From a virus, in the IMG/VR virus record IMGVR_UViG_3300034198_017445, positions 1 to 64,000 of that record: DNA of 64,000 nt; one strand, 5' to 3'. The position numbers and the translations under genes are program-made. Shown here piece after piece: positions 10,732 to 56,343 of the stretch. Numbering within the stretch: position 1 is the first letter of the stretch; the number at the start of each line of letters is the position of its first letter. Below the pieces are notes generated by a model. It searched no databases and was not told the DNA's origin. It saw only the letters and a list, made by a program, of their open reading frames with translations.

Positions 10732-11321
10732 TGCCGGACATTCTCAAGAAAACACCAACGTACACTCAAGTCGAAGCTCCTGTTTCGTTGACTGCTAACA
10801 CCCTCGGATCGCTTCGGACTTTGGATTTGCGCACCAAGCAAGGAGCACTGATTGGTATTCGGTTCGGCAGGTCCGTCGCTACAGTGTTGAATAGACCTGC
10901 CTATGTTTCAATCCGGCGCACTGACGGGAATACACTTTGCATTCCGTCAACAATATTTGACTTCGTGTCGCAAGTAAACGCATGTACTGCAACGACGCTT
11001 TCGAGCAGCGCATCGGCTGGAGATACTCAAGTTGTCGTTGTCAGTGGAACAGGGCTTGCGATCGGTGATGTGATTTGCTTCGCCGTAGCTGGAAGATTTG
11101 AAATAGCGAGGATCTTCAACATTGTCACTTCCACGACACTTGTGCTTGAAAGACCATTGCTCGCGGCGCATACAAGTGGCGATGCGGTTACGAACTGGGC
11201 TGAAGCGGCATGGATATTTTTGCCCGGATGGGAGCACTACGAAATTCGTTGCTGCAACGCAAGCAACCAAACAGTTCTTTTTGCGATCGATGCGGTGATT
11301 GATGAGGGCGAATCCTACTGA
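10731..11321 (+). CDS. Hypothetical virion protein
   Basis: TAATG coupling; TTLSSSASAGDTQVVV...LAIGDVI motif typical of phage structural proteins. Confidence 0.55.
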   Translation: MPDILKKTPTYTQVEAPVSLTANTLGSLRTLDLRTKQGALIGIRFGRSVATVLNRPAYVSIRRTDGNTLCIPSTIFDFVSQVNACTATTLSSSASAGDTQVVVVSGTGLAIGDVICFAVAGRFEIARIFNIVTSTTLVLERPLLAAHTSGDAVTNWAEAAWIFLPGWEHYEIRCCNASNQTVLFAIDAVIDEGESY

Positions 11322-12142
11322 TGAGCCGTCAAGGGGTTGTGCAATTCGAGAATCCTGTAAGTAGGCATCCACTGAATGTTGGGCTTCGGGCGTGGTATTA
11401 CATGCCTGACTCTAGGTTTGCAACTCAGGGTAGAATTTTCAACTTGGTAAATCGACGATTCAATCCTGGAACGGTATCTGGGACCTTCGGCTTCGGCGCG
11501 ACGCCGCGAAACTCCATTGCGTTCCGACAGCTCTCGCCTGTGTCGTTCGTCACCGTGCCGGACGGCCTGATCCCAGGGGCTGCCGCTGGAACCAGTGGCA
11601 CCGTATGCGGGTGGGTTAGAGCGACCGGCCTATGGTCGAGATTCCGCAACGTGTGGCTGTGGAACTCAAGAAATGTCGACGTGAGCATGAACGGAGGGCA
11701 GATTGGAGGAGCCGGGGCGCAGCCGTCCGCGTTCATTTTCTCCGCTACGAGGGTGACTGGCACACTGACCACGGACGCACGCTGGGTATGGCTTGCGGCG
11801 ACTCTTCGCTACAACGGCACGTTGAATGTGTACGTCAACGGCGTATCGATTGGATCCAGTGCCGTCGGAACCCATCAAACGCAAGTCGGATTCACTGCGA
11901 GGATTTGGGCGTACAGCGATCCAGTTGCGAATCAAGCTGACTGGCTTGGACCGTACGAATTCGACTACACGCGAGTCTATGACCGGGATTTGAGTGCGGA
12001 AGAAATTAGGTTTTTGTATATGGAGTCGCTTGACGGAAACCAGAATACATTAAATCTGGAGCGTCAGCGCCGATATGGGTTCGCTTCTACTCCAAGCGGA
12101 TCGCTTTTGCAATCTAGCTATTTCATGGCATTTCCAGGATAA
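11321..12142 (+). CDS. LamG/concanavalin-like lectin domain virion protein
   Basis: TVCGWVR...WVWLAAT...NVYVNGV...RVYDRDLSAEEI is a LamG-like pattern. Confidence 0.75.
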   Translation: MSRQGVVQFENPVSRHPLNVGLRAWYYMPDSRFATQGRIFNLVNRRFNPGTVSGTFGFGATPRNSIAFRQLSPVSFVTVPDGLIPGAAAGTSGTVCGWVRATGLWSRFRNVWLWNSRNVDVSMNGGQIGGAGAQPSAFIFSATRVTGTLTTDARWVWLAATLRYNGTLNVYVNGVSIGSSAVGTHQTQVGFTARIWAYSDPVANQADWLGPYEFDYTRVYDRDLSAEEIRFLYMESLDGNQNTLNLERQRRYGFASTPSGSLLQSSYFMAFPG

Positions 12143-31890: not shown

Positions 31891-32479
31891 CAAAGAGGTT
31901 TTGTGGTACACGTTGAGTGCTGGCATTATGTGCGGCGCGTACCCTGGTTCGTTCCTGAAAAACGACGCAAAGCGGAGAATCAACAAGCTGCTCAATTTGG
32001 GCGTTCGATCGTTCGTTGATCTTACCGAACAAAGGGAAGCAACCAGAAACGGTTGGCTGCGGTCGTACACGAAGGTCGATCCAATGTCGGACGAAGATAT
32101 CCTGGCTGAGTGTGCCAAAAAGAAGGGTATCGTCGATTACGAGTACGCTGGGTTTCCCATCCGTGATGGTGACGTTCCTAGCTACGCTGTGGTCGATCTG
32201 GCAATGATTCGGATCCTCCGGGCGCGTTCGGAAGGCAAGATTGCCTACGTCCATTGCCGTGGTGGTATCGGTCGAACCGGGGTGATCGCTGCGATTTTCC
32301 TTGGGTGCGAGGATCTCGACTGCAATCCGCAGGACAAGCTGGACGTGATCCGGTCGACGGCTGGCATCTTCACGCCAAGTCCGGAGAACGGGAAGCAACG
32401 CGAGTTCGTTGATCGATACCTGCAAACCTACCGGGAAAAGCGGCATAAGTTCTGGTTTTCGAAGGACGCAAAAAAATAA
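31871..32479 (+). CDS. Dual-specificity / tyrosine phosphatase
   Basis: HCRGGIGRTG CX5R loop; FPIRDGDVP acid loop. Confidence 0.88.
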   Translation: MDVLKANKEVLWYTLSAGIMCGAYPGSFLKNDAKRRINKLLNLGVRSFVDLTEQREATRNGWLRSYTKVDPMSDEDILAECAKKKGIVDYEYAGFPIRDGDVPSYAVVDLAMIRILRARSEGKIAYVHCRGGIGRTGVIAAIFLGCEDLDCNPQDKLDVIRSTAGIFTPSPENGKQREFVDRYLQTYREKRHKFWFSKDAKK

Positions 32480-40066: not shown

Positions 40067-40375
40067 GTGAAGACTACTATTTTGATTGGCGTGTTGTTGG
40101 CAGCGGTTCGGATTTGGCTTGGGTTTAACATCGAGCCTGAATCGTTTCGCTGGGACCAAGTCTTCAAGGACGCGGCGCACTTGTTCATGGGTGGTCTTGC
40201 TGTCGCGTGGTGGTTCAATAGGTATGAGCTGACCGACGAAGACTGGGACGATACCGAGGACAACAGTGCTCTGTTTGAGGCGCTGACGTGGTGTCTTTTG
40301 CAACCGTGGCAATGGTGGTTGTTTTGGTCGCTTAACGCGATTGAGGTTGCTGTCGCTGTCCTGAGTCGAATCTAG
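40067..40375 (+). CDS. Small membrane protein
   Basis: Three hydrophobic segments. Confidence 0.55.
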   Translation: MKTTILIGVLLAAVRIWLGFNIEPESFRWDQVFKDAAHLFMGGLAVAWWFNRYELTDEDWDDTEDNSALFEALTWCLLQPWQWWLFWSLNAIEVAVAVLSRI

Positions 40376-40677
40376 CTTGCTCAGCGGCTTTGTTGCGGAG
40401 ATGGGTCGGTTACGCATGCCTGCTCGGAGGCGTTGTTTCTGAGGCGATAGACGCGCGTTCGCTTCGTGCCTGTCCTGAGGCTTTGTATCTGGAATAGAAG
40501 CCGCTAGTGAACCTGCCTGGAGGTTTTGTTTCCTTGACGGAATTGAGTCTGGCTTATTGCCTATCAAGCGGCGTAATTGCTTGGAGTGCGATCCATTTGA
40601 GCCTGCCATGAGGCTTTGTTTCGTGGACAGGAATTCAGCATGATACAATGCCTGCCTAGCGGCTTTGTTGCTGGGAT
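40375..40677 (+). CRISPR. Orphan degenerate type V-M-like array: 7 structure-conserved 28-nt repeats
   Basis: Repeats start at 40375, 40418, 40468, 40511, 40559, 40601 and 40650; pattern GCC-TG-N6-GGC-N5-N-N6'-AY; spacers 15, 22, 15, 20, 14, 21 nt. Confidence 0.85.
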
Positions 40678-40708
40678 CATTCGAATCTAATACCAAGCGA
40701 GGCAGGTA

Positions 40709-41272
40709 ATGGCACGAGTAATTCGTTGGCGGTTTACGAAGGAGGCTGGTACCAATGGATCCAGTTTTAAGGCCGATGCCATAACCCAGGTGATGATCCC
40801 TCGGTTCCTGCGGTACTGGGATGTGGATTTCCAGCAGTTGACAACGATGGCAGGAACGCCACACGTCACGTTTCGGCTGACGACTCGGACGGTCAGTACG
40901 ATGTGGACGAACGGTCCGGTGATCCATATAAACGCCAAGTTCAAATGGGGCACTTCGCTCGCGGCGCGTGAGCAAATGGGACTGTGCCTATGTCATGAGG
41001 TTGGTCACTGGTTGTCGCCATCGAATCCGATTCACGCTGCCAGTGTTGGAAACGTCATGTTCGCTCAGGTTGGCGATCCGTACCTAAATTGGACGCTGGT
41101 CGACATGAAGTGGTTTGGCATGCTTCCGTGGCGATCCACCTTACGTCCGTGGCACGAGAAAACGCACTGGTATCCCTTACCAAAGGTTGCAATGGGGCTG
41201 TCGGGGCATGAAGATCACGAGATTCTGGAGCCTATCGTGCTTGGTTGCGGTAAGAATCATCGAAAAAATTGA
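40709..41272 (+). CDS. Zinc metallopeptidase (metzincin/matrixin-like)
   Basis: CHEVGHWLSPSNPIH...NVM (HExxH, third His, Met-turn). Confidence 0.7.
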   Translation: MARVIRWRFTKEAGTNGSSFKADAITQVMIPRFLRYWDVDFQQLTTMAGTPHVTFRLTTRTVSTMWTNGPVIHINAKFKWGTSLAAREQMGLCLCHEVGHWLSPSNPIHAASVGNVMFAQVGDPYLNWTLVDMKWFGMLPWRSTLRPWHEKTHWYPLPKVAMGLSGHEDHEILEPIVLGCGKNHRKN

Positions 41273-41305
41273 GACGTTTTGGCGTTCGTCTCGGCTTAGT
41301 ATGTG
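41271..41305 (+). promoter_or_regulatory. GAGAC-N15-TCGGCT motif copy
   Basis: TGAGACGTTTTGGCGTTCGTCTCGGCTTA is identical to the 43843 copy. Confidence 0.7.
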
Positions 41306-41339
41306 TGCTTGGTTCTGCTCTTACTTTTGGAGTTTCAAA

Positions 41340-41756
41340 GTGTCTCACGTTGCTACTGTCGATGTTGTCATCAAGGATCTGGATTGTCTTCAAAAGGCAG
41401 CGGAATCGCTTGGTCTTGTGTTCAATCGGGACGCGAAGACGTTCTACTCGTATCAGTCTGGGCTGACCTGCGATCACTCGCTGTCGGTCAAGGAAAAGCA
41501 AGCGAACCCGAATCGCCGACCGTATGAGATCGGAGTCGTGAAGGGAGAGGGTGGTTACTCCCTCCAATTCGATCCGTTCAACCATGGCTATGGCTTGTGT
41601 CCCTACATCGAGTCGGAACCTGCAAAGGGCGACGCTGGAAAACTGGTACAGGCTTACGCTCTGGAGGTTGCCAAGAAGCAGGCTCGGATGCAGGGTTTTT
41701 TGGTTCGCGAGGTTCGCGCTGCAAACGGTGCGGTGACATTGACGCTGTCGCGATAG
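41340..41756 (+). CDS. DUF1257 (Ycf35-like) protein
   Basis: SHVATVDVVIKDLDCLQKAAESLG...YEIGV...YSLQFD...LVQAYA. Confidence 0.75.
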   Translation: MSHVATVDVVIKDLDCLQKAAESLGLVFNRDAKTFYSYQSGLTCDHSLSVKEKQANPNRRPYEIGVVKGEGGYSLQFDPFNHGYGLCPYIESEPAKGDAGKLVQAYALEVAKKQARMQGFLVREVRAANGAVTLTLSR

Positions 41757-41811
41757 TTTCGCGGCGGTTGGTTTGGTTGGTTTCTGTCGGCATCAAATTG
41801 GAAATAAAATC

Positions 41812-42006
41812 ATGAGCGAACAAATCAAGATCGAGATAAGTCCTGTAGGCGCGGTGAAGGTGTCGGTTCAGGGCGTTGCTGGTTCCGGTTGCAAAGATCT
41901 AACCAAAGCGATTGAGGCGTCTCTGGGGGTCGTGACTGAGGACACAAAAACGGGGGAATTTTACCAGACGGCAAAGGCTGGTCAGGTGGTTACCCAAGGA
42001 GGGTAG
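41812..42006 (+). CDS. DUF2997 family protein
   Basis: IKIEISPVGAVKVSVQGVAGSGCKDLTKAIEASLG. Confidence 0.8.
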   Translation: MSEQIKIEISPVGAVKVSVQGVAGSGCKDLTKAIEASLGVVTEDTKTGEFYQTAKAGQVVTQGG

Positions 42007-42007
42007 T

Positions 42008-42271
42008 GTGGCTGGAGATCAGTTTCGGGGTGATCACTATTTTGAGGTCTATGCGCGTCGAAACATCGGGGGCGTGCGTAGCTCTGTGACCTGGGTTGTT
42101 AAGGTCCGGTCCATGGCGAGGTTCCAGGCTCATTGCCGGTGCTATCGTGATTCCGAGAAAATGCTGGAGCACTCTCCTGGCTGGCTTTTGGTCGTCACTG
42201 AAATTAATGAGACGACTTTCGATCGCATGCGGCTATTAGGATATGGTCGCGAGTTTGAGTTCGTCGGTTAA
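42008..42271 (+). CDS. Hypothetical protein
   Basis: GGAGG RBS; GTG start. Confidence 0.45.
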   Translation: MAGDQFRGDHYFEVYARRNIGGVRSSVTWVVKVRSMARFQAHCRCYRDSEKMLEHSPGWLLVVTEINETTFDRMRLLGYGREFEFVG

Positions 42272-42290
42272 CGGGAGCTGTGCTGTGGAA

Positions 42291-42524
42291 ATGCAAATTC
42301 GGTTTGGTGGTGACGGGGTGGTGACAGCGGTTTACGCGGATGACCTGATGCCAGTCCTGAGTTCGATCGGCGGGACATCCATCGTTCGGGCTTCCAACGT
42401 GGAGCCCGTTGAGGGTGGCTGGGAGGTCGCCATAGTCGACGGTCCGAAGTTCGGTCCGATCGTGCGTCGCGATGATGCGATCGCTGCTGAGGTCCAATGG
42501 TTGCGTGATAACGGGAGAGCGTAA
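42291..42524 (+). CDS. Small conserved protein (RASxVEP family)
   Basis: IVRASNVEP...GPKFGP...RDDAIAAEVQWL, recalled as a neighbour of DUF1257/DUF2997/AAA genes. Confidence 0.6.
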   Translation: MQIRFGGDGVVTAVYADDLMPVLSSIGGTSIVRASNVEPVEGGWEVAIVDGPKFGPIVRRDDAIAAEVQWLRDNGRA

Positions 42525-43336
42525 TGTTTCGGGATGTTGTGTCACATATTGAAACGCATGAGCAGTATCATGCGAGGCGTGAGCTGTCGACTTCGATGGT
42601 CAAGGACTGGATTCATTCGCCAGAAATGTACCATCGTCGGAACGTTCTCGGCATCAAGAAAAAAGCCACTGATCCTATGGATTTTGGTAATGCGGTGCAC
42701 GAAGACCAGTTGTTGTCAATTTGGGAGCAGACTTACATTGTCATTCCCAAGGAGGTACTGGCTACCAACGGTGCGCGTCGTGGTAACGCTTGGGATGCGT
42801 TCAAGGCAGCGAACGAAGGAAAGGTTTTACTCAAAGAGCAGGACGTTGCTGATTTGGTTGCTATTCGCGAATCGATCGCTGCAAACCCGGACGCGAGGTA
42901 TCTCCTGGAGTCCGAGGGTCTGTCGGAAGTTTCCCTGGTTGGCTGGGCAGATCTTCCCGGCGAGGAGGGTGCTGGTACTCACTACCGTGGCAGGCTTGAT
43001 CGTGTCATGCAGGCTGGTGAGCGTAGGATCGTTGACCTGAAAACGACCGGCGACATGAGTCCACGGGCGATGCGGTACAAACCGTTGGATTCGTGCTGGG
43101 ATATTTCCGGCATGGCTTACTCGAAAATGTGGGAGGCGATGACCGGCGAATTATTGCCGGTGGATTTTATCGTCGTCGAGACGTGCGAGCCGTATCGGGT
43201 TGAGGTATACTCACCTAGCAAAGCGACGCTTGCGATGGCTTTGGATCGCTGGCTTGAGGCTGTTATCGGCATCCAGTCGGCTGTCGCAAATGGGTACTGG
43301 CATCGTGACGGTTACCCTGCGAGAATCATGTTTTAG
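42524..43336 (+). CDS. RecE-like PD-(D/E)XK exonuclease (DUF3799-like)
   Basis: YHA...STSMVK...SPEMY, MDFGNAVH, RGRLDR, IVDLKTT, FIVVE. Confidence 0.85.
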   Translation: MFRDVVSHIETHEQYHARRELSTSMVKDWIHSPEMYHRRNVLGIKKKATDPMDFGNAVHEDQLLSIWEQTYIVIPKEVLATNGARRGNAWDAFKAANEGKVLLKEQDVADLVAIRESIAANPDARYLLESEGLSEVSLVGWADLPGEEGAGTHYRGRLDRVMQAGERRIVDLKTTGDMSPRAMRYKPLDSCWDISGMAYSKMWEAMTGELLPVDFIVVETCEPYRVEVYSPSKATLAMALDRWLEAVIGIQSAVANGYWHRDGYPARIMF

Positions 43337-43367
43337 TTTGTGATCTTGTTTTTCTGGGAGTGCTTGT

Positions 43368-43736
43368 ATGGCTGATGAAGTCAAAGATGAATCTGTTGTT
43401 TTGTCCGGCGCTGCTGGCGCTGCGTTGTCTTTCGAGAAGGTGCTTCGCGAAAACCTGGACACTCATGACGAAATGTTCTTGTCCGATGCGAAGCCGTTGC
43501 TTCTCGGGCATCGGTTTGTCGATGCGGTTGTCAACGCTCTGAAAGCCTTGACTGGTCAAAGTCTCGCAAGTCTCAACAAGGAAGACGCTCTTGCTTTGGT
43601 TGCGAAAATGTACGACGAATACATTTCGAAGATCGATCTTCCCGGTCCGTTCGACAGTTTTATCCATCCGATGATCAAGAACATCGCCCTGGTTATGATC
43701 GGTCGTGTTTTCGACTCGTTGAAAAAACCGGCGTAG
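43368..43736 (+). CDS. Hypothetical protein
   Basis: GGAG RBS; IDLPGPFD motif. Confidence 0.5.
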   Translation: MADEVKDESVVLSGAAGAALSFEKVLRENLDTHDEMFLSDAKPLLLGHRFVDAVVNALKALTGQSLASLNKEDALALVAKMYDEYISKIDLPGPFDSFIHPMIKNIALVMIGRVFDSLKKPA

Positions 43737-43751
43737 TTCGCAGTACAATGA

Positions 43752-43833
43752 TTCCGATGGCGATAAGCAGGTACGGACGACTTGCTTCGCTAGCGCACCT
43801 GGGTTACTCCCGTTTCCCAGGTGCGTTTTTTTT
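43752..43833 (+). ncRNA. Candidate small RNA: two hairpins, with a terminator loop antisense to the AAACGGGAG RBS motif
   Basis: TACAAT at 43744; hairpin GCGATAAGCAGGT/ACTTGCTTCGC; stem CGCACCTGGG/CCCAGGTGCG with loop TTACTCCCGTTT and a T8 tail. Confidence 0.5.
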
Positions 43834-43843
43834 GCGCTGGCGT

Positions 43844-43872
43844 GAGACGTTTTGGCGTTCGTCTCGGCTTAT
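43844..43872 (+). promoter_or_regulatory. GAGAC-N15-TCGGCT motif copy
   Basis: Upstream of the ERF gene. Confidence 0.7.
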
Positions 43873-43913
43873 GTATTAGTGGTGTTCTGTTTTTCACGTT
43901 CTGGAGTCTGGCT

Positions 43914-44873
43914 ATGAGTGTTGTTGTCGAAAACGGAGTTATGGTGTTCGAGGACGGCGCGTTGATGCAGACCGTCGATATCAATTTGCTATTGCAAGGG
44001 TTGCATGCGTTCCACGCTGAGTGTCCGAAAGTATTCAAGTCGGAATGGAACAAACAGCTAAGTTCGTACTATGCGGATCTGGCTACGATCTTGGATACGA
44101 TCAGTCCGTTTCTTGTGAAGTCTGGACTGGTGTTGACCCAGGCGGCGTTTGGTAACAATCTCGCGACGACTCTGTATCACACGTCCGGTCAGTGGATGCG
44201 AGTGACGACCAAGTTCGAGGTTCTTGATGCTGTGAGGTATCGCACGGGGGATAAAGGCGAGATCGATGTTCGCGGTGTCACTCCGCAGACCTACGGTTCT
44301 GCTCTGACCTATGCGCGTCGATACGCAGTGGGTTCGATCCTAAGTCTCACGATCGATTCGGATGACGACGGCAATGGTGGGCAGGGCGACGATCCGCGTC
44401 GACGCTACTCGGGAAATTCACCTGGAAGAACAATGAACCAGAACTCTGCTCCGAAGGCTGGAAGTGCGAAGCCTGCGGACGCAAATCCAAAGATCGAAGT
44501 TCCAAAGGCTGACGTTGCTCCTGCGAAGATTGAGCCGTTGTCGAACGCGAAGATTTCCGAGATCGTGACTCGAATCGGCGAAAGCACTCTGGAGAAGATG
44601 CCTGCATGCGAGGCTGCGTTGACGAGGTACGGTTCATCATCGTCTATCACCAAGGCGTTGTGGGGGGATTTGATCGATGTTTTATTGGGTCGCTGGATAT
44701 CCTTGGAGTCTGTCGATGGTGTTGAGGCTTTGCGTGCAAAAGTGACCGCCTACGGTGGTCGTAGTTTGCTTCCGAACGAAACAGTTGTACGGCTGATTGG
44801 TGCCATCGATGAGCGTATCGCGGTGAACCAGGAGCCACAAGAAAAGGTCGAGGGGTCATCCGATGGTCAGTGA
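43914..44873 (+). CDS. ERF-family single-strand annealing protein
   Basis: YADLATILDTISPFL...GL, LYHTSGQW, PQTYGSALTYARRYA, DDDGN. Confidence 0.9.
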   Translation: MSVVVENGVMVFEDGALMQTVDINLLLQGLHAFHAECPKVFKSEWNKQLSSYYADLATILDTISPFLVKSGLVLTQAAFGNNLATTLYHTSGQWMRVTTKFEVLDAVRYRTGDKGEIDVRGVTPQTYGSALTYARRYAVGSILSLTIDSDDDGNGGQGDDPRRRYSGNSPGRTMNQNSAPKAGSAKPADANPKIEVPKADVAPAKIEPLSNAKISEIVTRIGESTLEKMPACEAALTRYGSSSSITKALWGDLIDVLLGRWISLESVDGVEALRAKVTAYGGRSLLPNETVVRLIGAIDERIAVNQEPQEKVEGSSDGQ

Positions 44874-45768
44874 TGAAAAAGAGAGAATTGTCCAGGTCGA
44901 TATTGCGGATCTGGTTTTGGATCAAAGGCTTCAAGCGAGGGCCGAGGTTGACCGTGTTGTCATCGACGACTACAGCGAGGGGTGGAAGGACCAGGAAAAG
45001 TTCCCTCCGATTCGAATCATCGTCGTGGACGGATCCAAGTACGTTGTCGACGGTTTTTTGCGGGTCATGTCTGCGTCGAACGCTGGCGTGATTTCAGTTC
45101 CAGCGGTCGTTAAGCCAGGAACGTGGGACGATGCGGTTGCTTTTGCGGTTGGAGCCAACGCGAAGCATGGCGCTAGAAGGTCGTCTGCTGACAAGCGAAA
45201 GGCTGTCACGATGGCTATCACTCAGTGGCCTGATCGGAGCGATCGGCTGATTGCTGGGATGGTCAAAGTTTCTGTTCCGTTGGTTGGTTCGGTGCGGTCG
45301 AAGTTGGGGAAGAAAAGCCCATCAAAGCACAACGGCGTCGATGCAAAAAGGAAAGAAAAGGCGGAGCGAGCGAGCAGAAAAAAGGCTGCATCGGTTGTCA
45401 ACGTTTCAGAGGCTGGCAGTTCGATCGTCTCGCTTGCTGATGTGGCGCACGTCACGAAATGCCCGGAGTGCAATTGTCCGGAGTTCGTGCTGGACGATGG
45501 TGGCAAAACCTGCAGTGCATGCTTGCGACCGGTGGTTCCTGGCGACGCTGCTACTCCACTTGATTCGGTTCCTGCTGTCGCTGCGGATCCTGTTGTCGAG
45601 GCTCCGACTGTCGATTCCGAGACTGGGTCCGGGAAGGTGAAAGGGATCAGCGGTACCAAGGCTGCGGCGCGTAAGTCGCTAGGCGAGTTGGTCCGTTTGT
45701 GTGATCGCATGAAGATTTACGAACAGGCTCGCGAGCATTTGAATGCTCTGTCTCAAATCATTGGATAG
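44863..45768 (+). CDS. ParB/Srx-like domain protein with a C-terminal zinc ribbon
   Basis: QARAEVD...FPPIRI...VVDGFLRV...NAKHGARRSSADKRKAV...SDRLIA. Confidence 0.75.
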   Translation: MVSDEKERIVQVDIADLVLDQRLQARAEVDRVVIDDYSEGWKDQEKFPPIRIIVVDGSKYVVDGFLRVMSASNAGVISVPAVVKPGTWDDAVAFAVGANAKHGARRSSADKRKAVTMAITQWPDRSDRLIAGMVKVSVPLVGSVRSKLGKKSPSKHNGVDAKRKEKAERASRKKAASVVNVSEAGSSIVSLADVAHVTKCPECNCPEFVLDDGGKTCSACLRPVVPGDAATPLDSVPAVAADPVVEAPTVDSETGSGKVKGISGTKAAARKSLGELVRLCDRMKIYEQAREHLNALSQIIG

Positions 45769-45788
45769 TTTCAGGAGGGGGGTGGCTG

Positions 45789-47402
45789 GTGAGTGCGATC
45801 GATGCGTCAAAAAACTGGGATCACCAAAATCGGGCGAAGCATGAAACTGCCCAGGCTCGTGCTGAAGGATGCAAGTCATCGCTGGTGGTTGCTCCGTGCG
45901 GCGCTGGCAAGTCTCGGATCATGATGCAGCTTACTCACGAGGAGGTTGCTCGTGGTGGTTCGGTCAGGATCTACGTCCATCGGACGATGCTTCGCGAGCA
46001 ATTGTCTCGTGACTTTACGGCTGCGGGAATAAGCCACGGGTTGATGGCTGCGGGTGCTGAGGTCGACGAGTCGAAGCCTGTTCAGATTTGTATGGCTGAT
46101 TCTGTTTACTCGCGTGCTATCGTGCGTTCCAAGTGGTCGCTTGGAAGTCCAAGTTTGGTGATGGTCGACGAGTCCCACAATCAAACCGGGAACACGTTAC
46201 GATCGATTCTGTTCGGTGGCACCAACGCTGGAGGCTTTACTTGGCAAGGGCACATTCAAACTGGAGCTGATTGCATTGGTTTCACGGCTACTCCGGTCAA
46301 CTGCGAAAAAATCTACGACCGAATCATTGAGTGCGGTTCGTACTCTGAGATGCGTCGGGTAGGGGCTCACAGTATGGTCCGGGTGTATTCTCCATCGGAG
46401 ATTGACTGCGCTGGGTTGGCTCGAAATGCTGACTATGAGTTTTCAAGTTCGGCGTTGTCTGATCGCGCGGTTCGCATCTTCGGAAACTGCTACGACTCGT
46501 GGAAGAAGTTAAATCCTGATTGCTATCCGTCGCTGCTGTACGCTCCCTCGGTTCAGTCGTCGCGTTGGTTTGCGGAGGAGTGGGCAAAGAAAGGCGTGAT
46601 GGTCGCGCACATCGACGGTGAGACGTGCATGCTTCCGGTCCGTAAAAACGGCGAGGTTCATCTTGAAACTTACGAGTCGGACGAAGAAGCCAGAAAGCAA
46701 CTTTTGGAAGGTTCGAAAAGTGGCGAGATTGCTCTGATTTGCAATCGGTTTGTGTTGCGAGAGGCGATCGATATGCCATGGATCCGTCACGGCATTGCGG
46801 CGACCGTGTTTGGTGGTATTTCATCCTACCTGCAGTCGGTTGGTCGGATCCAGCGGTTCAGTCCTGCGTATCCATACAAGGTCTGGCAATGTCACGGAGG
46901 TTCGTTCTTTCGGCATGGTAGCCCGAACGCAGACCGCGACTGGGAGTTGGGTTGCACGAACAAGTCTTGCGCTCAGGGGCGTGCTGAAAAAATCGCGAAG
47001 TCTGAAAACCCGCAGGACGTCGAGGGTATCTGTTGTCCGAAGTGCTCCGTCTGGAGGCAGTATGGACCGCGATGCCCTGGCTGCGGTCATTCTCACAAGC
47101 TGTCGGTGCGCGTGGTGCAGCAGGTCAGCGGCGAGTTAAAGTTGATGCGTGGCGTCGTTAACAAGGTGAAAAGCAAAGCAAAGGCGAAAACTCCTGATAA
47201 AATATGGACGAGCGTTTTGTGGGGAAGTGCCAAGCGGGACCGTTCCGTTTCGTCGGCTGTGGCTTTGTATCGGGCTCGTTGTGCGAAGGAGGGGGTCTAC
47301 TGCGACATCACCAAGTTGCGGTTTGCACCACCTGCTCCAAATTCATCCGATTGGCATCTCTCGGTACGAACGGTTTATCCATGGTTGGGTGGTGCTGGAT
47401 GA
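45789..47402 (+). CDS. Superfamily 2 DNA helicase (DEAD/DEAH-like) with Zn finger
   Basis: APCGAGKS, MVDESH, GFTATP, EAIDMP, QSVGRIQR, CPKC/CPGC. Confidence 0.9.
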   Translation: MSAIDASKNWDHQNRAKHETAQARAEGCKSSLVVAPCGAGKSRIMMQLTHEEVARGGSVRIYVHRTMLREQLSRDFTAAGISHGLMAAGAEVDESKPVQICMADSVYSRAIVRSKWSLGSPSLVMVDESHNQTGNTLRSILFGGTNAGGFTWQGHIQTGADCIGFTATPVNCEKIYDRIIECGSYSEMRRVGAHSMVRVYSPSEIDCAGLARNADYEFSSSALSDRAVRIFGNCYDSWKKLNPDCYPSLLYAPSVQSSRWFAEEWAKKGVMVAHIDGETCMLPVRKNGEVHLETYESDEEARKQLLEGSKSGEIALICNRFVLREAIDMPWIRHGIAATVFGGISSYLQSVGRIQRFSPAYPYKVWQCHGGSFFRHGSPNADRDWELGCTNKSCAQGRAEKIAKSENPQDVEGICCPKCSVWRQYGPRCPGCGHSHKLSVRVVQQVSGELKLMRGVVNKVKSKAKAKTPDKIWTSVLWGSAKRDRSVSSAVALYRARCAKEGVYCDITKLRFAPPAPNSSDWHLSVRTVYPWLGGAG

Positions 47403-48495: not shown

Positions 48496-48589
48496 GGTTG
48501 CTTTGGCCGATAAGTGTATGTACATTAAGTGCATCGATCGACGGGGTTGTCGGTCAGGTTCGGTGGGTTGGAAAACGGGAGATCTGGCA

Positions 48590-49090
48590 ATGGCTGCATC
48601 ATTTGAAGTCGATGTTTTGGATGTGGATTTTGATGCTGTGCGTCGCGCTGCGGCGTTCAGCTTGCGAACGAACCAAGGAGTGTGCTCGTTTGCGGACGCG
48701 GATGACGTTGCTCAGGAAACTGCGATTGCGGTGATGAACGGCTATGTGAGCGTTCAGTGGAAAAGCCGGAACATCGCTAGGAATTTGCGAAGCAAAGAAA
48801 AGCTGGCGAAGAAGCGTGAGATGGGCGCTGCTGTGCGTCGATCCGAGTCGGCTAGCGATGTCGATCCGTTGTCGCAGTTGATTGCTCTTGAGAACGATTC
48901 CATGGTCTGGTCGGTTGTAGAAAAGCTCCCTACTTTTCATTGTTGGGTGATCATGGCTCGGTATCGCGATGGGATGACTATCAGCGAATGCGTGGACGCG
49001 AGTGGGTGGTGCCGTGGAAAGGTTACGCGAGCCATTGCCGAGGCTTTGGTGATGCTGCGGGATGAATTGGCAGACTTTGTCGCCGAGTAG
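48590..49090 (+). CDS. ECF-like sigma-70 factor
   Basis: Region 2 DADDVAQET; region 4 LP...VIMARYRDGMTISEC...GKVTRAIAEALVMLR; GGGAG RBS. Confidence 0.75.
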   Translation: MAASFEVDVLDVDFDAVRRAAAFSLRTNQGVCSFADADDVAQETAIAVMNGYVSVQWKSRNIARNLRSKEKLAKKREMGAAVRRSESASDVDPLSQLIALENDSMVWSVVEKLPTFHCWVIMARYRDGMTISECVDASGWCRGKVTRAIAEALVMLRDELADFVAE

Positions 49091-49149
49091 CGTGGTGGTT
49101 GCTACAATCCAAGGCATCTAATTTTGGGTGCCTGAACGGGAGAAGTAGC

Positions 49150-50433
49150 ATGGACTGGGTTTCGCGAATTGTTGGTCACGAGAAGGTTGCTGCAGGTCAG
49201 TTGCTTGCCAATCCATTTAATCATCGGCAGCATCCCAAGGCTCAGCGGGATGTTGTTGCGGCATCGATCGAGGAGTTGGGGTTCGTCAAATCGGTCATCG
49301 TGAACCGAACGACCGGTCACATCGTCGACGGTCACGAACGGGTGATGCAGGCGCTGGGTGTTGGCGAAGAGACGATGGTCGACGTGGAGTACGTCTCTCT
49401 GACCTTGGATGAAGAACGCAAGGCTTTGTTGATTCTTGATGCGTCGTCTGAGATGGCGAAGGTGGACGCGGATCTCTTGCGTGAGCTGGTCAATGTGACC
49501 GAGTTCAATCTCCCTGCCCTGGACGGGCTCATGCAGGACATGATGGCGTCGGCTGGCGTGAAGGTCACGATTCCCCCTGGCGACGACGATCTTCCGGAAC
49601 CACCAGACGAGCCAATCGCGCGGCTGGGTGATCTTTGGATCCTCGGGGACCATCGGGTGATCTGTGGCGACTGTACGGACAGCGGCGTCGTTTCTCGGTT
49701 GCTCAACGGCGTTATGCCAGTGCTCATGGTGACCGATCCTCCGTATGGGGTCGAGTACGATCCATCGTGGCGAAACGAAGCGGGGCTGGGAAGTACCGAG
49801 CGTACTGGCGTGGTGCTCAACGACGATCGTGCGGACTGGACGGAAGCGTGGCTTCTGTTCCCTGGTCCGGTGGCTTACGTTTGGCATGGTGCGCTTCATG
49901 CTTCGGAAGTGGAGCAGTCGCTGGTAAAGGCTTCATTTGAAGTTCGCTCGCAGATTATTTGGGCGAAGCCGAGGGCGGCGATCAGTCGTGGCGCGTACCA
50001 CTGGGGGCATGAACCGGCGCTCGTGGCTTCCCGTGGAGAGCAGTCGATCGAGCCAGATGAATCGACGGATCAAGACGGCGAGCACGGTTGGTACTGTGTG
50101 CGAAAAGGTGCCAAGGCGTACTGGTGCGGCGGTCGGAAGCAATCGACGGTCTGGAATATCGGATTCGCTGGCGAGGTGAAGTCTGAGCACGGTACGCAGA
50201 AACCGGTCGCGTGCATGGCGAGGCCGATGATGAATCACGGGAGACCTGGGGATGTGGTCTACGATCCGTTCCTCGGGTCGGGCACATCGGTTATTGCAGC
50301 CATGCGGTCGAAGCGAGTATGCTATGGGTGCGAGCTGAATCCAGCATACGTCGATCTAATCGTGCGTCGCTGGCAAAACATCACGGGCCTGCAGGCTCAA
50401 GTGGTGCGTCAAACCGAAGAGGTTGAAGCGTGA
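49150..50433 (+). CDS. ParB-like N-terminus fused to an N6A/N4C DNA methyltransferase
   Basis: NPFNHRQH...IVDGHER; TDPPYG; HGTQKPV; DPFLGSGTS; GCELNPAYVD. Confidence 0.9.
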   Translation: MDWVSRIVGHEKVAAGQLLANPFNHRQHPKAQRDVVAASIEELGFVKSVIVNRTTGHIVDGHERVMQALGVGEETMVDVEYVSLTLDEERKALLILDASSEMAKVDADLLRELVNVTEFNLPALDGLMQDMMASAGVKVTIPPGDDDLPEPPDEPIARLGDLWILGDHRVICGDCTDSGVVSRLLNGVMPVLMVTDPPYGVEYDPSWRNEAGLGSTERTGVVLNDDRADWTEAWLLFPGPVAYVWHGALHASEVEQSLVKASFEVRSQIIWAKPRAAISRGAYHWGHEPALVASRGEQSIEPDESTDQDGEHGWYCVRKGAKAYWCGGRKQSTVWNIGFAGEVKSEHGTQKPVACMARPMMNHGRPGDVVYDPFLGSGTSVIAAMRSKRVCYGCELNPAYVDLIVRRWQNITGLQAQVVRQTEEVEA

Positions 50434-53731: not shown

Positions 53732-53796
53732 CGGGCTGGCTGGTTCGGTCGCTGAAAAGATTCCCCAGAAATGACCTTATTTTTGTATTTACGGTA

Positions 53797-53824
53797 TTGA
53801 CGCTAAGTGTTTGGTCGTTAAGAT
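53797..53824 (+). promoter_or_regulatory. Sigma70-like early promoter TTGACG-N16-TAAGAT
   Basis: Part of a ~100 bp leader duplicated at 59738-59839. Confidence 0.65.
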
Positions 53825-53886
53825 CAATGCATGCGGACGACGGGGTGTCGGCTGCGGGGTTCGAAGTGAAACGGGAGACGTTGAAA

Positions 53887-54126
53887 ATGACTGCTGCAAA
53901 AAAAGAAGAATTGGCTCCAACGGTCTACCGCACAAGCGGCACGAAAAATCGAGCGATTGCTCAGTTTGTCACGATCGAAGCGGCAAACGCTTACGTTGCA
54001 GAATTGATTGCCGGAGGCCAATCAAACGAGTTTTTGATAAAGATGGCCGTTCGCAATCCAATCAAAAAGGCTTACACCAAGCGAGGTGTTTGGAGAGAAA
54101 GCGGAGTTCGGCAGGTTAATCGATAA
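53887..54126 (+). CDS. Hypothetical protein
   Basis: AAACGGGAG RBS. Confidence 0.55.
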   Translation: MTAAKKEELAPTVYRTSGTKNRAIAQFVTIEAANAYVAELIAGGQSNEFLIKMAVRNPIKKAYTKRGVWRESGVRQVNR

Positions 54127-54447: not shown

Positions 54448-54531
54448 AAAGTCGCGCCCTGTAATCGGCTGGGCGTGGCCTGGGTATGTGCGGTGGTTGG
54501 TTTGGTTGGTTTCAAAACGGGAGATTCTGTG

Positions 54532-54801
54532 ATGCGTGCTAATACTTTGGGTGAGTTGCTTGAGGCTGTTGAGGAGTTGATCGAGGCTCATGGTGCGGAC
54601 GTCGAGGTTCGCATGGCGACGCAGCCAAACTATCCGTTCGAGTGGTCGATCGGTGGCGTGGTCGCTGTCGATCCGAGCGAATCGGACGAGGACGACGATG
54701 AAGGCTCGGATGCTCCCTCGGGAGATGGCGAGGTCATCGTCTACATCCTGGAGGGTTCCCAGCTCGGGTACGCTTCCAAGCGGCTGTGGGACGAGCAGTA
54801 G
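54532..54801 (+). CDS. Hypothetical acidic protein
   Basis: AAACGGGAG RBS; EVRMATQPNYPFE...VYILEGSQLGY conserved-looking motif. Confidence 0.6.
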   Translation: MRANTLGELLEAVEELIEAHGADVEVRMATQPNYPFEWSIGGVVAVDPSESDEDDDEGSDAPSGDGEVIVYILEGSQLGYASKRLWDEQ

Positions 54802-54882
54802 GCGTTGGTGTCAAGTTTGCAGTCGCGTCGCGTTGGCGCGGCTGCTGTGGGGGTTGGTTGGTTTCAAACGGGAGACGGTTCT

Positions 54883-55614
54883 ATGTCGGTTAAGAACAGG
54901 GCTGCGGTTGTGTTGTACGAGTCGATGGTCGCTTCGATCCACGACATGCTTGCTGATCTCAACGAGGCTGCGGGAAACTTTCCTGCTCCGGACGGAGATG
55001 TGATTCCGAACGGTGACTATGGCGATCTTGGCAATGTCGCCGAGGTTCATCGGTTGCTTGGTGAGGCGATGGGGTTCATCAAGTCGTATCGACCGGTGGG
55101 GGCTGCGGCGCGTGGTGCTCCGTGCGACGACAACGCGTATCTGTTCCGTGCGCCTGTCAACGCTGATAAGGGTCGCATGATTTGGGTGCGAGGCGATGAA
55201 AACTACGACTGGGTTCTTCGGGAGTTCGTTCGCGTCGATTGTGCTGGTCGGTTCGTTTGCGTCGACGCTGAGATTCGCACTGTGCGTGTCTTCTGGAACT
55301 GCGGTCTGATCTGGGATGGAACCATGCCTGTCGAGAAGGATGTCGTGTCGGAAGTGATGGATCGTGGTCCGTGCGACGACAACGATGCGGAGTTTCGAGT
55401 TCCGGTTGATTCGGACCGTGGTCGCATGGTCTGGGTCAAGGACGTTGGCTCGCGATGGTTCCGTCGCGAATTTATTTCTAAATCCGGAGGTAGGTTTTTG
55501 TGCAAGGAAAGCAGTGCTCCTTTGGGCTATGTTAGCTGGGATGTAGCAAATATCAGGGTCGATTCCAAGCCTGTCGAAAAGGCTGATCTTGGAACAATTC
55601 GCGTCATCACCTGA
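54883..55614 (+). CDS. Hypothetical protein with a duplicated ~65 aa domain
   Basis: PCDDN...FR-x-PV-x-x-D-x-GRM-x-WV...W-x-x-REF occurs twice. Confidence 0.6.
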   Translation: MSVKNRAAVVLYESMVASIHDMLADLNEAAGNFPAPDGDVIPNGDYGDLGNVAEVHRLLGEAMGFIKSYRPVGAAARGAPCDDNAYLFRAPVNADKGRMIWVRGDENYDWVLREFVRVDCAGRFVCVDAEIRTVRVFWNCGLIWDGTMPVEKDVVSEVMDRGPCDDNDAEFRVPVDSDRGRMVWVKDVGSRWFRREFISKSGGRFLCKESSAPLGYVSWDVANIRVDSKPVEKADLGTIRVIT

Positions 55615-56299: not shown

Positions 56300-56343
56300 T
56301 TTGCTGTGGTGTTGTGTTCGTGGTTCAAGCGGGAGATTGAAAG

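What the first reader, a model, noticed from the sequence alone, without database searches (positions are those of the whole stretch)
43744..43833. Candidate sRNA whose loop is antisense to a ribosome-binding motif shared by many phage genes, including the sigma factor and cas12m
Seen: a terminator-like stem exposes a 12-nt loop TTACTCCCGTTT (43804-43815). Its complement AAACGGGAG occurs 7-9 nt before start codons at 48573 (sigma), 53869, 54515, 54866, 59820, 60157 and 60387. At 60157 the match extends to 12 nt. AAGCGGGAG (one G-U pair) occurs at 56327 before cas12m, and AACGGGAG at 42270, 42510 and 49135. A given 9-mer is expected about 0.25 times per strand in 64 kb, although the GGAG core is enriched as a Shine-Dalgarno. 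A TACAAT box and a second hairpin lie upstream. Inference: one trans-acting RNA controls translation of a regulon with a standardised RBS, acting as a temporal switch.
Basis: partly seen in the sequence, partly recalled or inferred. Interest (0 to 1): 0.72.

Follow-up and report, generated by a model that had tools for sequence, protein, structure and literature searches.

The report
Phage terminator loop mirroring ribosome sites
An uncultured 74-kb phage ends one operon with a strong terminator hairpin whose loop is the exact mirror of an unusual ribosome-binding tag used by about eleven of its genes. The two may pair to control translation, but this rests on one genome and no RNA data.

Summary
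AAACGGGAG occurs 7 times on the + strand, always 7-9 nt before a start codon. It occurs once on the - strand, in the loop of hairpin 43793-43826 (expected 0.47 in all). Near-variants bring the tagged genes to 11.

The hairpin is first of all a Rho-independent terminator: an 11-bp GC-rich stem and U8, after the last gene of a recombination operon and before a repeated promoter. No convincing promoter of its own was found. The loop is predicted to be partly closed, leaving a UCCC tetraloop.

Only the loop is complementary to ribosome sites, and no other hairpin in the genome behaves this way. Eleven relatives keep the gene order but lack both the 100-nt hairpin module and the tag, so covariation cannot be tested. 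No RNA run exists.

The tag behaves like the start-associated sequences (SAS) of Cluster K mycobacteriophages. In phage Adephagia I found the single reverse SAS in the loop of a conserved hairpin. The loop nearly matches the SD-binding terminator loop of Listeria LhrC.

Verdict: certainly a terminator. That the loop is a working anti-RBS seed is close to even odds, about 0.4. This scan has noted similar loop/tag pairs in other phages; those notes are unchecked and not counted here.

The parts
43368..43736 (+). 122-aa gene, last gene of the operon 41340-43736 (DUF1257-like, small ORFs, PD-(D/E)XK exonuclease, p122)
   Evidence: ORF list. The exonuclease matches Pfam/PHROG families. p122 orthologues follow the exonuclease in 5 related phages and 6 metagenome contigs.
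43744..43749 (+). TACAAT box. The only -35-like hexamer is TTGAAA at 43719-43724, 19 bp away, so this is a weak candidate promoter.
   Evidence: Read. Not called by the sigma-70 scan.
43758..43792 (+). Upstream hairpin 1: 13 pairs with a 2-nt bulge and loop UACGGAC. It has no complementarity to ribosome sites.
   Evidence: Folds and the 7-mer scan.
43793..43826 (+). Terminator hairpin: 11-pair GC-rich stem around a 12-nt loop
   Evidence: It is the strongest stem-plus-U-tract in the 74-kb genome.
43804..43815 (+). Loop UUACUCCCGUUU. Bases 43807-43815 are the exact reverse complement of AAACGGGAG. Predicted inner pairs A-U and C-G leave a UCCC tip.
   Evidence: Nearly identical to the terminator-loop consensus of Rfam LhrC.
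43826..43833 (+). U8 tract of the intrinsic terminator
43843..43880 (+). Family promoter-like repeat (TGAGAC..N..CTCGGCTTA..) that heads the next unit (ERF recombinase, start 43914)
   Evidence: Repeat families D5/D8, with copies at 32470, 34527, 41250, 43843, 53112 and 55592. A homologous box follows the p122 stop in all relatives.
48573..48581 (+). AAACGGGAG tag, 8 nt before the ATG at 48590 (166-aa ECF-sigma-like protein)
49134..49142 (+). GAACGGGAG tag, 7 nt before the ATG at 49150 (ParB-like/DNA methyltransferase)
53869..53877 (+). AAACGGGAG tag, 9 nt before the ATG at 53887 (79 aa). Preceded by a TTGACG-17-TAAGAT promoter-leader repeat.
54515..54523 (+). AAACGGGAG tag, 8 nt before the ATG at 54532 (89 aa)
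54866..54874 (+). AAACGGGAG tag, 8 nt before the ATG at 54883 (243 aa)
56327..56335 (+). AAGCGGGAG tag (one G-U with the loop), 8 nt before the TTG at 56344 (582-aa Cas12/TnpB-like protein)
59820..59828 (+). AAACGGGAG tag, 8 nt before the ATG at 59837 (87 aa). Carries the second copy of the promoter-leader repeat.
60157..60165 (+). AAACGGGAG tag, 8 nt before the ATG at 60174 (66 aa). This is the longest match to the hairpin (12 nt, 60155-60166).
60387..60395 (+). AAACGGGAG tag, 7 nt before the ATG at 60403 (106 aa)
42269..42277 (+). TAACGGGAG, weaker member, before the start at 42285/42291. It lies in the same operon as the hairpin and overlaps the stop codon of the upstream gene.
42509..42517 (+). 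TAACGGGAG, weaker member, 6 nt before the exonuclease ATG at 42524. It lies inside the upstream coding sequence, so it is partly constrained by coding.

Best explanation
The element is the Rho-independent terminator that closes the recombination operon 41340-43736; this part is near certain. I also propose that the stable RNA 3' end it creates acts as a riboregulator. Its CUCCCGUUU loop would pair with the extended Shine-Dalgarno tag AAACGGGAG in front of 9-11 phage genes. These include an ECF-sigma-like gene, a methyltransferase, the Cas12-like gene, several small accessory genes and two genes of its own operon. Pairing would hinder 30S binding. The RNA would be delivered mainly as the 3' end, or a processed 3' fragment, of the operon transcript rather than from its own promoter. 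Shown here: the structure, the position, the exact and loop-restricted complementarity, and its uniqueness in the genome. Inferred: that the RNA accumulates, that pairing happens in vivo, and that the effect is repression.
For: (1) Exact 9-nt complementarity: 7 + 1 copies against 0.47 expected. Eleven tagged starts have loop-target hybrid energies of -13.6 to -15.5 kcal/mol. The genome mean is -4.0 (sd 2.6), and 66 other ribosome sites average -7.4. (2) Along 43737-43835, only the 7-mers at 43807-43809 have complements concentrated at gene starts: 10, 10 and 7 of 77 starts, against 0-2 for all other positions. (3) Among the 85 stem/loop combinations found (stem at least 8 bp, loop 6-14 nt; one hairpin can be listed more than once), the two for this hairpin match 8 RBS windows and the next best match 2. 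No hairpin in five related genomes exceeds 2. (4) Shuffling the loop letters gives P about 0.001. (5) The tagged proteins are unrelated, and their leaders share little beyond the tag, so the tag is maintained independently at each gene. (6) The 100-nt hairpin module and the tag are both present only in this genome. Eleven relatives keep exonuclease-p122 followed at once by the promoter. (7) Precedent: the loop UUACUCCCGUUU aligns with the LhrC terminator-loop consensus UUUACUCCCUUUU. In LhrC that loop binds a GGGAG Shine-Dalgarno region, shown by mutation and compensation (PMC4132741). (8) Independent parallel, checked here: in mycobacteriophage Adephagia the only reverse copy of the 13-bp start-associated sequence lies in the 10-nt apical loop of a roughly 19-bp hairpin on the coding strand. 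That loop is unchanged in 7 of 9 diverged relatives; the alignment's predicted structure has 8 compensatory pairs, two of them in this hairpin's stem.
Against: There is one genome only. Nothing lies between 41% and 100% identity for the neighbouring ERF protein among 5.8 billion clusters, so neither conservation nor loop/tag covariation can be tested. With the anti-SD core CUCCC held fixed, the U-rich flanks match by chance in about 6% of shuffles, so most of the statistical weight rests on a CUCCC in one loop. The loop is predicted to be partly closed. Net energies after opening both partners are modest, -4.7 to -9.9 kcal/mol. A 9-bp helix inside a 12-nt loop is sterically tight (inference). 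No own promoter was found. The parallel is not general: Ekdilam's loop differs from its unchanged SAS at 2 positions, and SirPhilip's loop is unrelated. No anti-SAS of 7 nt or more was found in the last ~5 kb of Pixie or ZoeJ, the only part of those genomes scanned here. An EF-type phage with 10 SAS has no reverse copy in a loop. Selection effect: the finding was picked from a very large scan, where coincidences at the 1e-3 level are expected.
Confidence: 0.42

Rival explanations
1. It is only a terminator. The hairpin ends the operon, and the loop's complementarity to the tag has no regulatory consequence. A C-rich, U-flanked loop happens to mirror an A-rich-plus-GGGAG ribosome site.
For: Every terminator feature is met. 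The site is a conserved operon boundary in all relatives. With the CUCCC core fixed, P is only about 0.06. The loop is partly closed in the predicted fold. No conservation or expression data exist. Several SAS-type phages have no antisense loop.
Against: The match includes the unusual C between AAA and GGGAG. It is confined to the loop and is unique among the genome's hairpins. A 12-nt loop is large compared with the 3-8 nt loops of most other terminators in this genome. The module and the tag co-occur only in this lineage.
Confidence: 0.4
2. One reading: an independent ~80-nt sRNA gene, transcribed from the TACAAT box and ended by the terminator, acts in trans as a temporal switch.
For: TACAAT at 43744-43749 would place a start at about 43756, just before hairpin 1. 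That gives a two-hairpin RNA of sRNA-like shape. A weak Rfam resemblance to LhrC spans both hairpins.
Against: The only -35-like hexamer is 19 bp away and the promoter scan calls nothing here. The box lies 8 nt after a stop codon inside a co-directional operon, so read-through transcription already supplies the RNA. The candidate promoter-like repeats seen elsewhere in this genome look different.
Confidence: 0.08
3. The tag is read by a protein or at the DNA level, for example a translational repressor, an endoribonuclease like T4 RegB that cuts at GGAG ribosome sites (recalled from textbook knowledge), or a DNA-binding factor. The reverse copy would then be a DNA site or irrelevant.
For: The tag extends beyond what 16S rRNA can pair with (established 16S 3' end CCUCCUUU, from general knowledge). 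For Cluster K SAS the literature leaves open a protein or an RNA factor (PMC3203893). A reverse-orientation site is natural for a DNA-binding protein.
Against: The strict 7-9 nt distance to start codons points to translation. An RNA-binding protein would not recognise the complement. No candidate factor was identified. Reading AAAC as an ECF -35 element fails because no consistent -10 follows (inspection).
Confidence: 0.05

Closest known systems
LhrC1-5 sRNAs of Listeria monocytogenes (Rfam RF00616) and the wider UCCC-motif anti-Shine-Dalgarno sRNAs of Firmicutes (RNAIII, RsaE, SprD, FsrA)
   Same: A CUCCC..UUU motif sits in the loop of the intrinsic terminator and pairs with a GGGAG ribosome site. 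The loop sequence is almost identical: UUACUCCC(G)UUU against UUUACUCCCUUUU (PMC4132741). Both have a two-hairpin shape.
   Different: Not a family member: 20.3 bits against a gathering score of 110. It has one CUCCC site rather than three. It is phage-borne, with a host probably not a Firmicute. It sits at the 3' end of an operon. Its presumed targets are the phage's own genes, which share a private tag.
Start-associated sequences (SAS/ESAS) of Cluster K mycobacteriophages and Cluster EF Microbacterium phages (PMC3203893, PMC7302621)
   Same: An asymmetric motif longer than a Shine-Dalgarno sits a few nt before the starts of about 10-19 non-structural genes, in one orientation. Some copies carry an extended upstream element that contains a promoter. 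Cluster K1 phages have exactly one reverse copy away from any gene start, and I find it in a hairpin loop.
   Different: The sequence differs (AAACGGGAG against GGGATAGGAGCCC or GGGAAAGGACCCC) and the phages are unrelated. Here the tag is absent from the nearest relatives, whereas SAS are conserved across a cluster. The function of SAS is still unknown (PMC11373665, PMC12699233).
c4 antisense repressor RNA of phages P1 and P7 (as summarised in PMC12197685)
   Same: A phage-encoded structured RNA whose loop sequences pair around a ribosome-binding site of phage mRNA and block translation.
   Different: c4 controls one operon (icd/ant) for immunity. Rfam shows no match to it here. In this phage a dozen dispersed genes would be targeted through a shared tag.
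icaR mRNA 3'-UTR/5'-UTR pairing in Staphylococcus aureus (PMC3868564)
   Same: A C-rich motif (UCCCCUG) in a 3' UTR pairs with the Shine-Dalgarno of the same mRNA. Here two genes of the hairpin's own operon carry AACGGGAG.
   Different: Most tagged genes lie on other transcripts, and the motif is in the terminator loop itself.

Membership tests
Rho-independent (intrinsic) terminator | GC-rich stem-loop followed directly by a U tract | tested here: met
   An 11-pair stem (10 Watson-Crick and 1 G-U) followed by U8 at 43826-43833
Rho-independent (intrinsic) terminator | Lies after the last gene of a co-directional unit, with a new promoter downstream | tested here: met
   It starts 57 nt after the p122 stop. 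The family promoter repeat starts at 43843. The same boundary exists in the relatives.
Rho-independent (intrinsic) terminator | Transcripts end there in vivo | not testable with these tools
   No RNA holder is listed
LhrC (Rfam RF00616) | Reaches the family's gathering score | tested here: not met
   20.3 bits against 110, E 0.48-0.8
LhrC (Rfam RF00616) | Three CUCCC..UUUU sites: loop A, linker and terminator loop | tested here: not met
   Only one anti-RBS site is found in 43737-43835, in the terminator loop
UCCC-type anti-Shine-Dalgarno sRNAs (functional class) | C-rich motif exposed in a loop and complementary to the targets' SD | tested here: met
   The UCCC tip is unpaired (probability 1.0) and the 9-nt complement matches 7-11 RBS
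UCCC-type anti-Shine-Dalgarno sRNAs (functional class) | Discrete stable RNA, and translational repression of its targets | not testable with these tools
Start-associated sequences (SAS) | Asymmetric motif longer than the SD, 3-9 nt before the starts of a subset of non-structural genes, in one orientation | tested here: met
   11 sites, nearly all 6-9 nt from the start (42270 is 7 nt from GTG 42285 or 13 nt from ATG 42291), all on the + strand, all within 42-61 kb. Tail and other structural genes use plain GGAG/GAGG.
Start-associated sequences (SAS) | Conserved across the related phages of a cluster | tested here: not met
   Five complete or large relatives use GAAAGGA-type sites and carry only 2-4 scattered ACGGGAG copies each, not all at gene starts. 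Six further contigs have none.
Start-associated sequences (SAS) | Extended upstream element (ESAS) at part of the sites | tested here: inconclusive
   A promoter-leader repeat with a CGACGGGGTGTCG hairpin precedes 53887 and 59837, and partly 48590. Other sites have unrelated hairpins.
c4 antisense RNA (P1/P7) | Match to the Rfam family | tested here: not met
   No Rfam hit at the gathering score. It is not among the weak hits either.
Independent sRNA gene | Own promoter with acceptable -35/-10 spacing | tested here: inconclusive
   TACAAT has TTGAAA only at a 19-bp spacer and is not called by the scan. The host's promoter rules are unknown.

The most novel reading that the evidence does not exclude
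Start-associated RBS tags of phages (the SAS type, whose function has been unknown since 2011) are docking sites for a phage-encoded anti-tag hairpin-loop RNA. In this phage the terminator loop of an early or middle operon would shut down a tagged regulon that includes an ECF-sigma-like gene, forming a feedback loop. In Cluster K1 mycobacteriophages the lone reverse SAS sits in a conserved hairpin within the gp92-gp93 gap. Late transcription is reported to start in that gap (PMC11373665), so the hairpin would silence tagged early genes once late transcription begins.
Probability: 0.3. Interest if true: 0.8.

Novelty: new variant of a known kind. Interest (0 to 1): 0.55.

Why it matters
If the loop works, a phage would coordinate a dozen scattered genes after transcription with about 12 nt of RNA borrowed from a terminator. 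It would do so by giving those genes a private ribosome-site tag. That is a compact design with obvious synthetic-biology appeal. It would also offer a concrete, testable answer to what reads the start-associated sequences of actinobacteriophages, an open question since 2011. Adephagia is culturable and engineerable, so the parallel found here can be tested directly. If the loop does not work, this case warns that a C-rich terminator loop can mirror an A-rich SD context by chance.

Tried and rejected
- RNA evidence: no RNA holder is listed for 41000-46000. The single DNA holder's contigs are identical to the window.
The second contig holding the identical ERF protein and the 41%-identity relative P0002 could therefore not be fetched.
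- Searches for close relatives all failed. These were INPHARED phages by blastn, the exact hairpin core in IMG/VR, the ERF protein in the 5.8-billion-cluster set, the Cas12-like protein in IMG/VR and p122 in JGI metagenomes.
- A profile search found six more contigs, all at 41-43% identity and all without the module.
- Rfam gave nothing at gathering scores for the whole window.
- A minus-strand RBS reading was rejected. After the minus-strand AAACGGGAG there is only GTG-CGC-TAG.
- Reading the tag as an ECF -35 (xGAAAC) was rejected, because no consistent -10 follows 16-17 nt downstream.
- Pairing with 16S rRNA does not explain the AAAC extension. Only GGGAG can pair with CCUCCU (general knowledge of the 16S 3' end).
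- Paralogy does not explain the tag. The tagged proteins are unrelated and the leaders share only the tag, except for two local repeats.
- Generality checks that failed: an EF-type phage with 10 forward SAS has no reverse copy in a loop. Its one 9-nt reverse match forms the stem of a local hairpin over a neighbouring RBS. The right ends of Pixie and ZoeJ have no anti-SAS of 7 nt or more.

Full report
**What is in the sequence**

The window is the first 64 kb of a 74,334-bp IMG/VR virus record that CheckV rates complete. Almost all genes lie on the + strand. AAACGGGAG occurs seven times on the + strand and once on the - strand, against 0.47 expected; none of 100 shuffles reaches 8.

Each + copy lies 7-9 nt before an ATG that opens an ORF. 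Allowing A[AG]CGGGAG adds the sites at 42270, 42510, 49135 and 56328. All 11 + strand occurrences then sit at ribosome-site distance from a start. ACGGGAG is among the most enriched 7-mers before starts in this genome.

The single - strand copy is 43807-43815. It lies inside the 12-nt loop of a hairpin with an 11-pair GC-rich stem, followed by eight U. A second hairpin (43758-43792) abuts it. The pair folds far better than shuffles (z = -4.4).

**What the element is**

It starts 57 nt after the stop of a 122-aa gene (43368-43736). That gene closes a co-directional unit containing a PD-(D/E)XK exonuclease. Nine nt after the U tract comes a promoter-like repeat that occurs six times in the window. 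Here it heads the ERF recombinase gene.

My stem-plus-U-tract search ranks this hairpin as the strongest terminator in the genome. Most other terminators have loops of 3-8 nt. So the element is an intrinsic terminator at an operon boundary.

Its only -35-like hexamer is 19 bp away, and the promoter scan calls nothing on this strand. The RNA is thus more likely the 3' end of the operon transcript than a separate gene.

The loop is not fully open in the predicted ensemble. A-U and C-G pairs form inside it, leaving UU/UU mismatches and a UCCC tip. Opening it costs 2.8 kcal/mol.

**What the tag is**

The tag marks about 11 of about 100 genes, all between 42 and 61 kb:

- an ECF-sigma-like protein (below-cut-off hits only, best E 1e-5);
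- a ParB/methyltransferase fusion;
- the Cas12/TnpB-like protein;
- six small proteins without family matches;
- two genes of the hairpin's own operon.

Tail and other structural genes use ordinary GGAG/GAGG sites. The tagged proteins are unrelated to each other. Their leaders share only the tag, apart from one duplicated promoter-leader cassette (53780 and 59733) and one 23-nt stretch. Many sites have a stable hairpin and a G/U-rich linker just upstream, while the tag itself is mostly unpaired.

This behaviour matches the start-associated sequences (SAS) described for Cluster K mycobacteriophages and Cluster EF Microbacterium phages. An SAS is a conserved asymmetric motif that overlaps the ribosome site of 10-19 non-structural genes, partly with an extended upstream element. 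Its function is still unknown (PMC3203893; PMC7302621; PMC11373665; PMC12699233).

**Is the loop/tag match more than chance?**

- Along 43737-43835, only the three 7-mers at 43807-43809 have complements concentrated at gene starts. They hit 10, 10 and 7 of 77 starts; every other position hits 0-2.
- The hairpin scan (stem at least 8 bp, loop 6-14 nt) lists 85 stem/loop combinations. The two for this hairpin match eight RBS windows by at least 7 nt, and the next best match two. No hairpin in five related genomes exceeds two.
- Shuffling the loop letters gives P about 0.001. If the anti-SD core CUCCC is kept and only the U-rich flanks are shuffled, P rises to about 0.06. Much of the signal is therefore 'an anti-SD core in one loop'.
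- Loop-target hybrid energies for the tagged sites are -13.6 to -15.5 kcal/mol. The genome mean is -4.0 (sd 2.6), and other ribosome sites average -7.4.
- After paying for opening both partners, the net energy is -4.7 to -9.9 kcal/mol. That is plausible but not strong.

**Relatives**

The large terminase found phages at 65-68% identity. Five long records were fetched whole, and a profile of p122 found six more metagenome contigs. All keep the order small gene, exonuclease, p122.

In every one of them the p122 stop is followed almost at once by the family promoter. None has the 100-nt two-hairpin module. They use GAAAGGA-type ribosome sites, carry only scattered ACGGGAG copies, and have no CTCCCGT at all.

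The hairpin module and the tag are thus both specific to this lineage. That fits a linked pair, but it is a single data point. Nothing lies closer than 41% identity for the neighbouring ERF protein.

**Precedents and an independent parallel**

A permissive Rfam search aligns the element with Listeria LhrC at a non-significant score: 20.3 bits against a gathering score of 110. The terminator loops nevertheless nearly coincide: UUACUCCCGUUU here and UUUACUCCCUUUU in the LhrC consensus. In LhrC that terminator loop, with its CUCCC..UUUU motif, binds the GGGAG Shine-Dalgarno region of lapB. This was shown with mutants and compensatory changes (PMC4132741). An RNA of this design can therefore do the proposed job. 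The extra G in the phage loop matches the unusual C of the phage tag.

Three other known cases are relevant:

- The icaR 3' UTR pairs with its own Shine-Dalgarno (PMC3868564).
- Terminator loops of SdsR, RseX and ArrS matter for regulation (PMC11979758).
- The c4 RNA of phages P1 and P7 covers a ribosome site with loop sequences (PMC12197685).

Pope et al. noted that Cluster K1 phages have one SAS in the opposite orientation, not at a gene start, so I looked at Adephagia:

- It has 16 forward SAS and one reverse copy.
- The reverse copy forms the 10-nt apical loop CCUCCUAUCC of a roughly 19-bp hairpin on the coding strand. The hairpin lies in the 430-bp gp92-gp93 gap (z = -4.1).
- The region is conserved in 131 phage records.
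- In nine diverged copies the loop is unchanged in seven; the predicted structure of the alignment has eight compensatory pairs, two of them in this hairpin's stem.
- The Adephagia transcriptome paper states that late transcription appears to start between genes 92 and 93.

I found no description of this hairpin in the papers I read.

The parallel has limits. Ekdilam's loop differs at two positions from its unchanged SAS, and SirPhilip's loop is unrelated. Pixie and ZoeJ show no anti-SAS in their right ends. An EF-type phage with ten SAS has no reverse copy in a loop. An antisense loop is therefore not a general requirement of SAS systems.

**Mechanism and odds**

It is certain that the element is the operon's terminator. 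I put about 0.42 on the further claim that the loop is a working anti-RBS seed. It would act from the 3' end of the operon RNA on the tagged leaders, and possibly in cis on its own two tagged genes, to reduce initiation. I put about 0.40 on a plain terminator with incidental complementarity. I put about 0.08 on a separate sRNA gene driven by the TACAAT box, and about 0.05 on a protein or DNA-level reader of the tag.

A feedback circuit is imaginable: host RNA polymerase makes the sigma-like protein from a tagged mRNA; the family promoters then drive the operon; its 3' loop shuts off the tagged set. This is pure inference.

**Novelty**

Anti-SD loops, terminator-loop seeds, phage antisense repressors and SAS tags are each known. 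The combination would be a new variant: a phage terminator loop aimed at a private tag on a dozen of the phage's own genes. It would also suggest a reader for SAS motifs.

Notes from this scan describe similar loop/tag pairs in other uncultured phages, some reportedly with covariation. I did not test those notes and do not count them as evidence.

Noticed in passing
L060 46661-46717 (Mycobacterium phage Adephagia JF704105, record 58660-58716): The single reverse-orientation start-associated sequence of Cluster K1 phages forms the apical loop (CCUCCUAUCC) of a roughly 19-bp hairpin on the coding strand. It lies in the gp92-gp93 gap, where late transcription is reported to begin. The loop is invariant in 7 of 9 diverged relatives; 2 of the alignment's 8 compensatory pairs lie in this hairpin's stem.
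   Followed up: partly
window 32470, 34527, 41250, 43843, 53112, 55592: A promoter-like repeat TGAGAC-N-CTCGGCTTAGTAGGTG heads several units. Relatives carry a homologous box (GGTGGCGTTGTAT-GGTGGC) at the same junctions. It may be a phage-family promoter type, perhaps read by the phage's ECF-sigma-like protein.
   Followed up: partly
window 53780-53859 and 59733-59812 (partly 48510-48560): A duplicated promoter-leader cassette (TTGACG-17-TAAGAT, then a CGACGGGGTGTCG hairpin) lies directly before two tagged genes and brackets the Cas12-like locus.
   Followed up: partly
window 40371-40680 and 58148-59690: More than 25 copies of a roughly 30-nt hairpin-like repeat (GCCTGCTCGGAGGCTTTGTTTCCGAGA type) lie at irregular spacing in two clusters. 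The larger cluster starts right after the Cas12/TnpB-like gene. It is the subject of other notes in this scan.
   Followed up: no
G003, G004, G005 (L045-L053), fewer in G001: The 60-kb relatives carry about 25 copies of the perfect palindrome TGGAAACGTTTCCA, both in genes and between them. This window has none, even with one mismatch allowed.
   Followed up: no
window 48590-49090: The 166-aa protein matches 17 ECF sigma-factor models over nearly its whole length, all far below their cut-offs. The best is the Rhodopirellula/Verrucomicrobium family (E 1e-5), which hints at a PVC-group host.
   Followed up: partly
window 54883 and 56344: The 243-aa protein and the Cas12-like protein both begin MSVKN, with different serine codons, directly after near-identical tags. 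This may be chance.
   Followed up: no
G006 (IMG/VR 56.7-kb record, L149) 11319-11345: This Cluster EF-like phage has 10 GGGAAAGGACCCC start tags. Its one 9-nt reverse match forms the 5' arm of a local hairpin that pairs with the AAAGGAC ribosome site of the next gene, a possible cis RBS-sequestering hairpin.
   Followed up: no
window 15662, 30740, 53382: There are three copies of the palindrome-like element GAAGTGTAAAAATTGACACTTCG.
   Followed up: no
L043, L041, L044 (relatives G002, G004, G001), upstream of ERF: Sequences that look like tRNA genes (GGTTCGAATCC-type T arms; not checked with ARAGORN) lie between p122 and ERF in several relatives. This phage has the hairpin module there instead, and ARAGORN finds no tRNA in the window.
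   Followed up: no
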